Made by a program: the position numbers. This document shows positions 49,901-52,900 of a DNA stretch of 64,000 bases, in pieces. Positions within the stretch are counted from its first letter, which is position 1. Every line of letters starts with the position of its first letter. The stretch is from the NCBI RefSeq assembly GCF_057098645.1, contig NZ_CM169472.1. One strand, written 5' to 3'.

Positions 49901-52900
49901 AGCATGCTCAGCCTGTACTGGCAATGACGAAATATTAAAAAGCGACTCCCCGTTTATTTTATTCATTCTAAGGTAATGACTCCAACTTATTGATAGTGTT
50001 TTATGTTCAGATAATGCCCGATGACTTTGTCATGCAGCTCCACCGATTTTGAGAACGACAGCGACTTCCGTCCCAGCCGTGCCAGGTGCTGCCTCAGATT
50101 CAGGTTATGCCGCTCAATTCGCTGCGTATATCGCTTGCTGATTACGTGCAGCTTTCCCTTCAGGCGGGATTCATACAGCGGCCAGCCATCCGTCATCCAT
50201 ATCACCACGTCAAAGGGTGACAGCAGGCTCATAAGACGCCCCAGCGTCGCCATAGTGCGTTCACCGAATACGTGCGCAACAACCGTCTTCCGGAGCCTGT
50301 CATACGCGTAAAACAGCCAGCGCTGGCGCGATTTAGCCCCGACATAGCCCCACTGTTCGTCCATTTCCGCGCAGACGATGACGTCACTGCCCGGCTGTAT
50401 GCGCGAGGTTACCGACTGCGGCCTGAGTTTTTTAAGTGACGTAAAATCGTGTTGAGGCCAACGCCCATAATGCGGGCTGTTGCCCGGCATCCAACGCCAT
50501 TCATGGCCATATCAATGATTTTCTGGTGCGTACCGGGTTGAGAAGCGGTGTAAGTGAACTGCAGTTGCCATGTTTTACGGCAGTGAGAGCAGAGATAGCG
50601 CTGATGTCCGGCGGTGCTTTTGCCGTTACGCACCACCCCGTCAGTAGCTGAACAGGAGGGACAGCTGATAGAAACAGAAGCCACTGGAGCACCTCAAAAA
50701 CACCATCATACACTAAATCAGTAAGTTGGCAGCATCACCTCATTCTAATACCAATAATATCGCCATTATCGCCATATATTTTTTCTGCACTCCCGGCACC
50801 ATAATATTGGTTGAAGCAACGAACTTCGTTTGTTACCTCTTCATTGCTTTGAGATGTAGTAAACATCTTCAGGACTTTTGTTGCATCCTCAGCATCTTCA
50901 TATACTACAGCGTTACCCCCTTTGCCAATAACATTACCAGCTAGCAGCTGCATCCCTTACAGAGGATAAAATACGACTGTCAGGAGAAGTCAGGTTTCTG
51001 GTTAAAGAATTCCATGAACACCCCAAATTTACAGAAGATGGTGATAGCATACATTTCAACCTTCAAAATGAATCAATCTTTACTTTCTTAACAAACATCA
51101 CCATGACATGACAACAAAAACCGGAGCCGGACTCCGGTTTTTTGTGAACCCGTCGGCTATTTCATCCCGCCAACATTTTCCCACACCCCGTCAGCACGCA
51201 GGATTTGCAACGGTCTTACCACGCACTGTATCTGCTTTTTATCCGCATCCAGTATCACCACCTGCGTGATTACCCTGTCCTGCTCCGGAATAATACCATT
51301 CTCATCGGACTCCAGGATGTCTGCCGGCCCCAGACGCAGTTGTGCTGTAAGCGACTGCACGTGTTCACGGCCATCATGCTTTCCGCAACCACACAGACGC
51401 TCCATAAGCTTTCTCAAAATATTCATGTCATTCTCCTGTTCTGCCTGTATCATTGCCCACTTCATCCAGTCCCTTAACATCCTGCCACGGCCCGTCGCCA
51501 AACCTGACCTGCAAATGCTGAAAAAAACCCTGAACCCGTGTGGCATCTTTGGGGTCAAGAAAGGTCAGTCCGGTGATGAGTGCGCCATCTGTATCCGGGA
51601 ACCAGCCATTGCTGTTTGTCTCAATAATGTTTCCCGGCCCCATACGGAACCGTATTTGCGTCTCCCCCGGGTCGCCCTTCGGCCCCTGAGGTCCGGTTGC
51701 CCCTACCGGGCCAGCCACACCTGTTTCTCCTTTCGGTCCCTGTGGGCCTGCCGGGCCTGCTGCCCCGGTGTCTCCCTTTGGACCCTGTGGACCTGTACTT
51801 CCTGTCAGCCCGGTCTCTCCCCGCTCTCCCCTGTCGCCTTTCGGCCCCTGCGGGCCTGCCGGACCAGCATCACCTGCCGGTCCCCGTTCGCCGGTTGCCC
51901 CGACAGGGCCGGTGTCACCGCGCTCTCCCTTATCACCCTTCGGCCCCTGAGGACCCGCGGGCCCCTGTTCCCCCTCTGGCCCGGGAGGTCCCACCACGGT
52001 GGGGATTCGGTTTACGGCGTCTTCCGCCGCTATCCTGCTTTGTTCCGCTGACTGTGCGCTTTCTGCTGACTCCCGGGCTTTTTCTGCTGCGGTCGTTGCA
52101 TCCCTGGCTGCATTACCGGCTGCACTTTCTGCCGTCTTTCTTGACAATTCAGCTTCTGCTGCACTTTGTAATGACTCACTGGCTTTTTGAGCGGCCGCAG
52201 AGGCCGAGGACGAGGACGCCTCCTCTGACTGCTTTGCAGCGGCTGCACTTTCTGCCGCCTGCCGGGCTGACTCCGATGCATCCCCTGCTGAAGTGTCAGC
52301 ATTTGCAGCGCTCTCTTCTGCCTGACTGGCTGATATGCCGGCATTCCTCGCGGACGTCTCCGCCTCTCCGGCATTCTTCTTCGCCTCCTCAGCGTGACGC
52401 GCCGCTTCTTCCACCATCAGTTCAAAACGACGCAGTGCCTCCGGACGGACGTCATCCTCCGTCATGGCACCGAGAAAATCATTCAGCGTACCGGGTCGGG
52501 AATCTTCATACACGGTGATGGTCCCGGCATGTGACGGCGGGAATCCTTCCACCAACAGAATGACGCTGTACTGACCGTACTCAACGTCCATGCTGTAACG
52601 ACCGGCTTCATCCGGATTTTCAGAGGCCACCGTGTTCACCACCACCGTGCTGCTGGTCCGTCTGGCTTTCAGTTGAATGGTGCAGTTCTCTACCGGTTTT
52701 CCTGTGCCGTCTTTCAGTACACCTGAAATCTTTACTGCCATATTCACCCCACAAAAAAGCCCGCCTGAAACGGCGGGCTGTCATAACACTGTGTTACCTG
52801 GCTAATCAGAACTTATAACCGACACCCACGATGAAACCGTCAGTGCGCCAGTCGCCACTGCCGGAGCCTTCATAAGCAATATCAATGGCCACGGATTCGG

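What the first reader, a model, noticed from the sequence alone, without database searches (positions are those of the whole stretch)
51428..52747. Short side tail fiber with a long collagen-like Gly-X-Y tract
The Stf homolog keeps the lambda-like N-terminus, but the remainder is dominated by an Ala/Ser/Glu-rich coiled region and more than 40 uninterrupted Gly-X-Y triplets. The triplet-repeat DNA is a likely substrate for recombination or length variation. The downstream small ORF does not resemble lambda Tfa.
Basis: seen in the sequence. Interest (0 to 1): 0.3.

Follow-up and report, generated by a model that had tools for sequence, protein, structure and literature searches.

The report
Collagen-like prophage side tail fibre (EPclA)
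This gene encodes a well-known type of lambdoid prophage side tail fibre whose shaft is a bacterial collagen triple helix (the EPclA protein, characterised biochemically in 2012), so the finding is real but ordinary.

Summary
The ORF is real, at 51428..52747 on the minus strand. The likely start is the ATG at 52741, which gives 437 aa.

Domain order:
- a lambda Stf-type N-terminal collar domain, 90% identical to lambda orf-401 over 110 aa;
- an Ala/Glu/Ser-rich region of about 117 aa;
- a 76-aa Phage_fiber_C (PfC) knob.

This matches the "EPclA" architecture of Ghosh et al. 2012: 437 aa, PCoil 116 aa, Col 111 aa. That paper showed experimentally that the protein is a trimeric dumbbell with a true collagen triple helix.

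The tract is not a simple DNA repeat and shows no sign of misassembly. Homologues carry 4 to 38 triplets, and their deletion junctions fall at internal GPQ-GPK-G or GPV-GAT motifs.

The downstream 89-aa ORF is not Tfa. It is a stand-alone paralogue of the fibre's own PfC knob (35% identity).
- It starts 1 nt after the fibre stop codon and has its own Shine-Dalgarno sequence.
- It is under purifying selection (pN/pS 0.13).
- It accompanies PfC-type fibres in 71 of 72 loci.
- Its homologue, Sp5 ORF68, is already reported as non-essential.

Verdict: already known; low interest.

The parts
51428..52741 (-). Side tail fibre gene (stf, EPclA type), 437 aa from the ATG. The mechanical ORF extends to a GTG at 52747.
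   Evidence: ORF list. Pfam PF08400 + PF01391 + PF06820. RefSeq relatives are annotated as a 1314-nt CDS. Matches the EPclA dimensions in PMC3368898.
52460..52741 (-). N-terminal collar (tail-attachment) domain, aa 1-94.
   Evidence: phmmer E 3e-51 to PDB 9E7M/9MGH chains, residues 1-94. In Ur-lambda, 12 copies of this domain form a collar at the gpV/gpM junction (PMC12617516). aa 1-110 are 90% identical to lambda orf-401.
51992..52342 (-). [quoted passage not shown]
   Evidence: Composition. The same region of the Sakai orthologue was shown to be a trimeric coiled coil with Tm about 50-52 C (PMC3368898).
51659..51991 (-). Collagen-like domain: 37 uninterrupted Gly-X-Y triplets (111 aa). Pro occupies X in 18 of 37 triplets. 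The motif GPQ-GPK occurs five times.
   Evidence: Regex count. Pfam Collagen E 4e-18. Triple-helix conformation with Tm 42 C was shown for the orthologue.
51428..51658 (-). C-terminal PfC knob (Phage_fiber_C) plus the TGA stop codon.
   Evidence: PF06820 E 2e-34. PfC was shown to be a trimerisation module in the orthologue. aa 249-437 are 93% identical to the distal end of the Sp5/VT2-Sakai podophage tail fibre.
51157..51426 (-). 89-aa stand-alone PfC paralogue. The ATG lies 1 nt after the fibre's TGA (TGAcATG).
   Evidence: PF06820 E 1e-35. 35% identical to the fibre PfC. 91% identical to VT2-Sakai H0138, a phage whose 89-aa small ORF, ORF68 of Sp5, is reported non-essential. 89 aa in 80 of 80 loci and at +1 nt in 79 of 80. 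pN/pS 0.13.
51433..51437 (-). AGGAG Shine-Dalgarno sequence for the small ORF, embedded in the last codons of the fibre gene, 6 nt before the ATG.
   Evidence: Read directly from the sequence.
52758..52779 (-). Intrinsic-terminator-like hairpin plus T-run between lom and stf, ending about 10 nt before the stf start region.
   Evidence: Terminator scan: 8-bp stem, 7 GC pairs, followed by TTTTT.
52806..53405 (-). Context: lom (Ail/Lom outer-membrane protein), immediately upstream of stf as in lambda.
   Evidence: PF06316 E 4e-118.
53473..56991 (-). Context: tail tip / central fibre gene J.
   Evidence: ORF list. RefSeq neighbours are annotated as gpJ.

Best explanation
The gene encodes the side tail fibre of a long-tailed lambdoid prophage, of the published EPclA class.

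How the fibre is built and works:
- Three chains assemble into one fibre.
- The N-terminal beta-sheet domain (aa 1-94) docks on the tail. In Ur-lambda, 12 such domains form a collar that anchors four trimeric fibres.
- An Ala/Ser/Glu-rich three-stranded coiled coil follows, about 17 nm long by rise per residue (my estimate).
- A 111-residue collagen triple helix follows, about 32 nm long (my estimate), joined to the coiled coil through a flexible hinge.
- The shaft carries a small all-beta C-terminal knob (PfC). PfC nucleates trimerisation from the C-terminal end and is the presumed receptor-binding tip.
- The fibre is expected to speed up adsorption, as Stf does in Ur-lambda, rather than to be essential.

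What is shown and what is inferred:
- Shown here: the domain content, order and dimensions, and the genomic position after J and lom.
- Shown by others on orthologues more than 90% identical: trimer formation, the collagen and coiled-coil conformations, and PfC trimerisation.
- Inferred: the receptor-binding role of PfC. BamA/YaeT is a possible receptor, because the Col-PfC end is 93% identical to that of the Sp5 podophage fibre, for which BamA has been proposed.

Length variation: collagen length evolves by in-frame deletion between the internal GPQ-GPK-G and GPV-GAT repeats.

The downstream 89-aa gene is a separately translated, selectively maintained 'knob-only' paralogue. It travels with PfC fibres as a two-gene distal cassette. 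I take it to be a non-essential accessory of the fibre tip rather than a Tfa-type chaperone or a silent recombination cassette.
For: Domain content and position:
- Pfam architecture PF08400-PF01391-PF06820.
- 37 GXY triplets and an Ala/Glu/Ser-rich spacer.
- Exact match to the EPclA dimensions of 437/116/111 aa.
- N-terminus matches PDB 9E7M/9MGH at E 3e-51, with the collar function described, and is 90% identical to lambda orf-401.
- Gene order J-lom-stf.

Published biochemistry: experimental trimer, triple helix with Tm 42 C, coiled coil with Tm 52 C, and PfC trimerisation for the Sakai orthologue.

Spread:
- 141 phage records, mostly Stx-converting phages, hold at least 80% of the protein.
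- 692 complete E. coli genomes hold at least 80% of the fibre-plus-small-ORF locus.

Distal module: the distal half is 93% identical to the Sp5 fibre, while the N-terminal half is only 35% identical.

Length variants: junctions fall at the internal repeats.

Small ORF:
- PF06820 hit.
- Always 89 aa, and at +1 nt in 79 of 80 loci.
- Present after 71 of 72 PfC fibre ends.
- pN/pS 0.13 overall and 0.10 on its PfC part, against 0.27 for the fibre's own PfC.
- AGGAG Shine-Dalgarno sequence.
- Fibres with a Peptidase_S74 end have a different downstream gene.

Fold: a linked-trimer AF2 model is all-beta, which agrees with the published CD result that PfC has little helix.
Against: - No experiment on this particular prophage. 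It may be defective: the closest RefSeq relative has a frameshifted tape-measure gene. In that case the fibre may never be assembled from this copy.
- The receptor-binding role of PfC is inferred only.
- PfC models are of low confidence: monomer pLDDT 66 and linked trimer pLDDT 62, with the five trimer models ranging from 25 to 62. They match no solved fold.
- No function is demonstrated for the small ORF. Deleting its Sp5 homologue gave no reported defect.
- The selection estimate rests on close relatives only (92-97% identity).
Confidence: 0.9

Rival explanations
1. The gene is an intact but functionally idle relic in a defective prophage. It would be kept only because of recent descent or gene conversion among the many prophage copies in such strains, and would not be assembled into particles from this locus.
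For: - Genomes that hold any match carry a median of 2 and up to 18 matching places, so copies can homogenise each other.
- The closest RefSeq relative of this prophage has a frameshifted tape-measure gene and pseudogenised neighbours.
- In the window, an IS1 has already disrupted the neighbouring nleH.
Against: - The ORF is full length with all four modules intact.
- The PfC-coding part shows pN/pS 0.27 and the small ORF 0.13 across loci.
- Ghosh et al. cite a study reporting that potentially defective O157 prophages are inducible, release particles and may be reactivated through inter-prophage recombination.
- This rival concerns this copy only, not what the protein is.
Confidence: 0.2
2. 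The small downstream ORF is a silent reservoir cassette used to replace the fibre tip by recombination, as suggested for Sp5 ORF68, rather than a functioning protein.
For: - Suggested by Mondal et al. 2016.
- One database protein (P0246) is an in-register chimera of the small-ORF N-terminal half and the fibre PfC C-terminal half.
- A 1-nt frameshift variant (P0050) fuses the two reading frames.
Against: - The two PfC-coding stretches share only 100 of 186 aligned nucleotides, and their longest identical word is 9 nt. That is too little for homologous recombination.
- The ORF keeps its ATG, its AGGAG Shine-Dalgarno sequence, its exact 89-codon length (80 of 80 loci) and a low pN/pS of 0.13, with no internal stops. 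A silent cassette needs none of these.
- The chimera is a single record and could be an assembly artefact.
Confidence: 0.12
3. The protein is a bacterial collagen-like surface adhesin or virulence factor (Scl/Lcl-like) that acts on the animal host, not a phage structural protein.
For: - Weak NCBIfam hits to SclB, SclA and Lcl over the GXY tract.
- The gene lies next to type III effector genes nleA and nleH.
- Ghosh et al. note that a role for the bacterium itself is not formally excluded.
Against: - The NCBIfam scores are far below the cut-offs (83 against 325 bits, 69 against 400, 68 against 500) and cover only the collagen repeat.
- The N-terminus is the solved lambda tail-collar domain, not a signal peptide.
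- No cell-wall or outer-membrane anchor domain was found.
- The gene sits in the tail operon after J and lom.
- Immuno-EM places the related Sp5 protein at the phage tail.
Confidence: 0.03
4. The long Gly-X-Y tract is an assembly artefact, with repeats expanded or collapsed.
For: Repetitive coding sequence. Homologues in draft assemblies show many different tract lengths.
Against: - The DNA repeats are only 60-79% identical and are not tandem-perfect.
- The 1701-nt query is matched end to end, in one piece, at 97.1-99.6% identity in the 25 complete genomes listed.
- 37 triplets is the commonest length in the first set of IMG/VR loci (50 of 80).
- It equals the 111-aa collagen domain in the finished Sakai and EDL933 genomes.
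Confidence: 0.01

Closest known systems
EPclA (EHEC prophage collagen-like protein A; e.g. ECs2717, ECs1123, Z0982), Ghosh et al. 2012, PLoS One 7:e37872
   Same: Identical architecture and dimensions: PfN - PCoil (about 116 aa) - one uninterrupted Col domain of 111 aa - PfC, 437 aa in total. It lies in the tail region of a lambdoid prophage.
   Different: Only allelic differences. This exact 437-aa sequence is not in the protein collection. The nearest complete-genome loci are 99.5-99.6% identical at the DNA level.
Bacteriophage (Ur-)lambda side tail fibre Stf with its chaperone Tfa
   Same: The N-terminal collar domain is 90% identical over 110 aa, and its structure is solved as PDB 9E7M/9MGH. 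The position after J and lom is the same. An Ala/Ser-rich trimeric coiled coil follows the collar.
   Different: Lambda Stf continues into a hinge and a gp37-like distal domain that binds OmpC. By general knowledge lambda Stf is about 774 aa and needs Tfa. Here the distal part is a collagen helix plus a PfC knob, there is no tfa gene, and the recombinant orthologue was made as a soluble trimer in E. coli.
EPclB: tail fibre of short-tailed Stx2 phages (Sp5 ORF67 / VT2-Sakai H0137 / 933W L0121) with ORF68 / H0138 / L0122
   Same: The distal collagen plus PfC (aa 249-437) is 93% identical and the downstream 89-aa ORF is 91% identical, so the distal two-gene cassette is the same. The Sp5 fibre is essential for infectivity, is located at the tail by immuno-EM, and BamA/YaeT is its proposed receptor.
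   Different: EPclB is 645 aa, has two collagen domains separated by a Pf2 repeat, and its N-terminal half is only 35% identical, suited to a podovirus tail.
EPclD-type fibres with a Peptidase_S74 C-terminus (Shigella and E. coli prophages)
   Same: Same PfN, PCoil and collagen front end.
   Different: The C-terminus carries a Peptidase_S74 domain (PF13884). By general knowledge this family is a self-cleaving intramolecular chaperone. The downstream gene encodes a Gp38_N-domain protein, not the small PfC ORF.
Streptococcal Scl1/Scl2 and other bacterial collagen-like proteins
   Same: A non-hydroxylated collagen triple helix, which Ghosh et al. attribute to Pro in the X position and charged residues, nucleated by a globular trimerisation domain.
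   Different: By general knowledge those are cell-surface adhesins with signal peptides and LPXTG anchors. NCBIfam scores here are far below their cut-offs.

Membership tests
EPclA (Ghosh et al. 2012) | N-terminal PfN domain (Pfam PF08400) | tested here: met
   PF08400 E 3e-69, profile positions 1-133 of 134.
EPclA (Ghosh et al. 2012) | Low-complexity Ala/Ser-rich PCoil region of about 116 aa between PfN and Col | tested here: met
   About 117 aa between the end of PF08400 and the first GXY. Composition A 29%, E 15%, S 14%. The coiled-coil conformation itself was not tested here.
EPclA (Ghosh et al. 2012) | A single uninterrupted collagen (Gly-X-Y)n domain | tested here: met
   One run of 37 triplets (111 aa), the commonest EPclA length in Table 2 of the paper.
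EPclA (Ghosh et al. 2012) | C-terminal PfC domain (Pfam PF06820) | tested here: met
   PF06820 E 2e-34, profile positions 1-64 of 64.
EPclA (Ghosh et al. 2012) | Forms a trimer with a true collagen triple helix | not testable with these tools
   Shown by CD, analytical ultracentrifugation, SEC-MALLS and EM for the Sakai orthologue. Only monomer or linked-chain AF2 was available here.
Lambda-type side tail fibre (Stf) | N-terminal collar domain homologous to gpStfN | tested here: met
   E 3e-51 to PDB 9E7M/9MGH over residues 1-94. 90% identical to lambda orf-401.
Lambda-type side tail fibre (Stf) | Gene located after J and lom in the tail operon | tested here: met
   J at 53473..56991, lom at 52806..53405, stf at 51428..52741, all on the minus strand.
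Lambda-type side tail fibre (Stf) | gp37-like distal receptor-binding domain, with a Tfa chaperone gene downstream | tested here: not met
   The distal part is collagen plus PF06820. The downstream ORF hits only PF06820 and no tail-fibre-assembly family. So it shares lambda Stf's attachment module but not its tip.
Phage_fiber_C (PF06820), for the 89-aa downstream ORF | Full-length match to the PfC profile above the gathering score | tested here: met
   122 bits against a cut-off of 25, profile positions 1-64 of 64. 35% identical to the fibre's own PfC.
Tail fibre assembly protein (lambda Tfa type), for the 89-aa downstream ORF | Sequence similarity to Tfa-family profiles | tested here: not met
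   No Pfam or NCBIfam hit other than PF06820.
Bacterial collagen-like adhesins (Scl1/Scl2/Lcl) | Score above the NCBIfam family cut-off, and a surface-anchoring architecture | tested here: not met
   83, 69 and 68 bits against cut-offs of 325, 400 and 500. The matches cover the GXY tract only. The N-terminus is a phage collar domain.

The most novel reading that the evidence does not exclude
The conserved 89-aa 'knob-only' PfC paralogue is translated from its own Shine-Dalgarno sequence right after every PfC-type fibre gene. It may be a functional partner of the fibre tip. It could be a cap or adaptor that stacks on, or mixes into, the PfC trimer and changes receptor specificity. Alternatively it could be a free decoy released at lysis that masks receptors on debris. 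Either would be a new kind of tail-fibre accessory, one derived by duplication of the fibre's own head rather than from a Tfa/gp38-type chaperone.
Probability: 0.2. Interest if true: 0.4.

Novelty: already known. Interest (0 to 1): 0.1.

Why it matters
As it stands, this is one more copy of a protein class that is abundant in EHEC, EPEC and related E. coli prophages and was characterised biochemically in 2012. It matters only in general terms. These fibres probably help set the host range of phages that move Shiga toxin and type III effector genes. They are also a model of a thermostable collagen that lacks hydroxyproline.

The one open point is small. No function is known for the strictly co-inherited, selectively constrained 89-aa PfC paralogue. 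The PfC knob has no solved or confidently predicted structure, and no receptor has been demonstrated for the long-tailed (EPclA) fibres.

Tried and rejected
1. AF2 model of the PfC domain as a monomer: pLDDT 65.7, too poor to use.
2. A work-around with three PfC copies joined by Gly-Ser linkers and a concatenated alignment: the domain cores reached pLDDT 70-80 and were all-beta, but the five models ranged from 25 to 62 in mean pLDDT, so I treat the model only as weak support for an all-beta knob.
3. Foldseek of that model against the PDB: nothing below E 0.1 and TM below 0.25, so no fold was assigned.
4. Sequence search of the small ORF against PDB chains: no real hit.
5. Profile search of PfC against 1.84 billion representative proteins: only 94 hits, mostly fragments from the same enterobacterial prophages, so the alignment could not be deepened. 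The long multi-repeat hits were spurious beta-repeat proteins (CarboxypepD_reg, SprB), apart from P0270 and P0281, which also matched PF06820.
6. Literature search by locus tags for the small ORF (ECs1229, Z1484, L0122, H0138 and others): nothing relevant.
7. Programmed frameshift joining the fibre and the small ORF: the last sense codon, GAA, before TGA-C offers no +1 re-pairing, and Mondal et al. also found no signal. Rejected.
8. Scl-like adhesin reading: rejected on score cut-offs and context.
9. Misassembly: rejected.
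Full report
**What is there.** The ORF list gives a 439-aa ORF at 51428..52747 on the minus strand, starting at a GTG. Two codons in there is an ATG (52741), preceded by GGGGTG. RefSeq relatives are annotated from that ATG as a 1314-nt CDS, and lambda Stf begins with the same MAVKISG. I therefore take 51428..52741 (437 aa) as the gene.

Upstream on the same strand lie J (53473..56991) and lom (52806..53405; PF06316, E 4e-118). Each is followed by a terminator-like hairpin. This is the lambda order J-lom-stf.

**Checking the observation.** Pfam finds PF08400 (prophage tail fibre N-terminal, E 3e-69), PF01391 (collagen, E 4e-18) and PF06820 (prophage tail fibre C-terminus, E 2e-34).
- A regex count gives one uninterrupted run of 37 Gly-X-Y triplets (aa 251-361 of the 437-aa protein; window 51659..51991). 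Pro occupies X in 18 of 37 triplets and GPQ-GPK recurs five times.
- The stretch between PfN and the collagen tract is A 29%, E 15%, S 14%, as described.
- At the DNA level the tract is not a simple repeat. TRF reports only a 45-nt unit in 2.1 copies at 77% identity, and the direct-repeat families are 60-79% identical.

**What it is.** The architecture and dimensions match the EPclA class defined by Ghosh et al. 2012 (PMC3368898): 437 aa, PCoil 116 aa, Col 111 aa. That class is present in seven to eight copies in each of the Sakai and EDL933 genomes. The paper showed experimentally that recombinant EPclA has these properties:
- It is a trimer that dissociates on denaturation.
- Its Col domain is a genuine collagen triple helix (Tm 42 C).
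- PfC is a trimerisation module with little helix.
- The molecule is a dumbbell with a hinged stalk.

The N-terminal 94 residues match chains of PDB 9E7M/9MGH at E 3e-51. These are the Ur-lambda gpStfN collar domains. Twelve of them encircle the gpV/gpM junction and anchor four trimeric side fibres through flexible linkers (PMC12617516). Residues 1-110 are 90% identical to lambda orf-401.

The protein is widespread.
- 141 phage records, mostly Stx1a-, Stx2a- and Stx2c-converting phages and BP-4795, hold at least 80% of it.
- 692 of 5426 complete E. coli genomes hold at least 80% of the fibre-plus-small-ORF locus. Genomes that hold any match have a median of 2 and up to 18 matching places.

**Modularity.** Residues 249-437 (collagen plus PfC) are 93% identical to the distal end of the Sp5/VT2-Sakai podophage tail fibre H0137, a 645-aa EPclB protein. 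The N-terminal half is only 35% identical. So the same distal module is mounted on two different tail-attachment modules.

The Sp5 fibre is essential for infectivity and sits at the tail end by immuno-EM, and BamA/YaeT has been proposed as its receptor. That PfC here binds the same receptor is my inference, not a result.

Fibres that share the PfN front end but end in a Peptidase_S74 domain have a Gp38_N-domain gene downstream instead.

**Length variation.** Among the 120 listed cluster representatives, tracts range from 4 to 38 triplets. Written out as triplets, the shorter PfC-ended forms are the 37-triplet sequence minus an internal block. The junctions lie at GPQ-GPK-G(D/E) or GPV-GAT. Examples are 26 triplets (deletion between the third and fifth GPQ-GPK), 19 (second to fifth), 8 (first to fifth) and 15 (between the two GPV-GAT).

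It extends the length list already given by Ghosh et al. (63-144 aa). Some short variants come from draft assemblies and could be collapsed, but several sit on multi-megabase contigs.

There is no sign that the window's tract is misassembled. 37 triplets is the commonest length in the first set of IMG/VR loci (50 of 80). The whole region is matched end to end at 97-99.6% identity in complete genomes.

**The downstream ORF.** The 89-aa ORF at 51157..51426 starts 1 nt after the fibre's TGA (TGAcATG). An AGGAG lies 6 nt upstream, inside the fibre's last codons. It has no Tfa-like hit. Its only Pfam hit is PF06820, at 122 bits, slightly above the fibre's own C-terminus at 118 bits. It is 35% identical to the fibre's PfC. 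Its first 27 residues (MNILRKLMERLCGCGKHDGREHVQSLT) replace the collagen helix.

The pairing with PfC fibres is very regular.
- In 80 of 80 IMG/VR loci found with the small ORF, it is 89 aa. In 79 of 80 it starts at +1 nt from an upstream fibre ORF.
- In 71 of 72 loci found with the fibre's PfC end and with enough downstream sequence, the small ORF is present.

Nei-Gojobori estimates give pN/pS 0.13 for the whole ORF (0.10 for its PfC part and 0.22 for the N-terminal 27 aa), against 0.27 for the fibre's PfC. There are no internal stops. It is therefore a real gene under constraint.

It is 91% identical to VT2-Sakai H0138 (933W L0122). For this phage (Sp5), Mondal et al. describe ORF68, the 89-aa fibre-C-terminus ORF next to the fibre gene, as non-essential and suggest it may be a reservoir sequence for fibre variation. 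I consider the reservoir idea unlikely. The two PfC-coding stretches share only 100 of 186 nucleotides and no identical word longer than 9 nt. A silent cassette would also not need a conserved start codon, Shine-Dalgarno sequence, length and amino-acid sequence. One chimeric database protein (P0246) and one frameshift fusion (P0050) exist, but they are single records.

My best guess is a non-essential, trimer-forming, knob-only accessory of the fibre tip. This is inference.

**Structure attempts.** PfC is a narrow family, with 94 representatives at 50% identity among 1.84 billion proteins, mostly fragments. A monomer AF2 model was poor (pLDDT 66). A linked-trimer work-around gave all-beta cores at pLDDT 70-80, but the five models were inconsistent and there was no PDB fold match. 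The only use I make of this is that an all-beta knob agrees with the published CD data.

**Rivals.**
- An Scl-like bacterial adhesin is rejected. NCBIfam scores are 83, 69 and 68 bits against cut-offs of 325, 400 and 500, the matches cover the GXY tract only, and the N-terminus is a phage collar domain.
- A misassembly is rejected (above).
- This particular copy may sit in a defective prophage and may not be used from this locus. That remains possible and does not change what the protein is.

**Verdict.** The feature is already known and experimentally characterised as EPclA. Its downstream partner has also been noted in the literature. Interest is low. The one modest open question is the function of the co-inherited knob-only paralogue.

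Noticed in passing
window 49685..50953 (minus strand): An nleH-like type III effector kinase gene is split by an IS1 copy. NleH profile positions 144-211 are at 50735..50953, IS1 insA/insB is at 49987..50684, and NleH positions 211-304 are at 49685..49966. The closest complete genomes cover only 92% of the 44000-53500 query, in two aligned pieces. I take that gap to be the missing IS1, but I did not map it.
   Followed up: partly
window 48146..49387 (plus strand): A 413-aa ORF in the effector locus downstream of the tail fibre. The gene at the corresponding position in the closest RefSeq genome is annotated as the type III effector NleA. It has no NCBIfam hit.
   Followed up: no
window 52758..52779 and 53435..53454 (minus strand): lom is bracketed by two intrinsic-terminator-like hairpins, one after J and one just before stf. 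This is the layout usually described for phage 'moron' genes.
   Followed up: no
P0246 (92 aa) and P0050 (379 aa), from database searches: P0246 is an in-register chimera of the small-ORF N-terminal half and the fibre PfC C-terminal half. P0050 is a fibre whose end runs by a 1-nt shift into the small-ORF frame (...TGRTENDMNILKNL). Each is either a rare recombinant or mutant, or an assembly or sequencing artefact.
   Followed up: no
P0270 (565 aa), from the representative-protein search: This protein has four tandem PfC-like repeats (…VVVLDAD…GILQVRRADGTW.EIPA.KG…) followed by a collagen tract and another C-terminal region. It was the one full-length distant relative of PfC that I examined (P0281, an 880-aa PF06820 hit, was not examined). 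It hints that PfC derives from a repeatable beta module.
   Followed up: partly
L082-L084 (Shigella boydii chromosomes), genes at 3001-4236 and 4322-4834: Fibres with the same PfN front end but a Peptidase_S74 C-terminus are followed by a 170-aa Gp38_N-domain gene instead of the small PfC ORF. The distal fibre module and the downstream gene seem to be exchanged together.
   Followed up: partly
L098 and L099 (IMGVR_UViG_2654588054_000006, 96 kb): One viral contig carries two PfC-type fibre ends about 49 kb apart. This suggests tandem or adjacent lambdoid prophages binned as one element.
   Followed up: no
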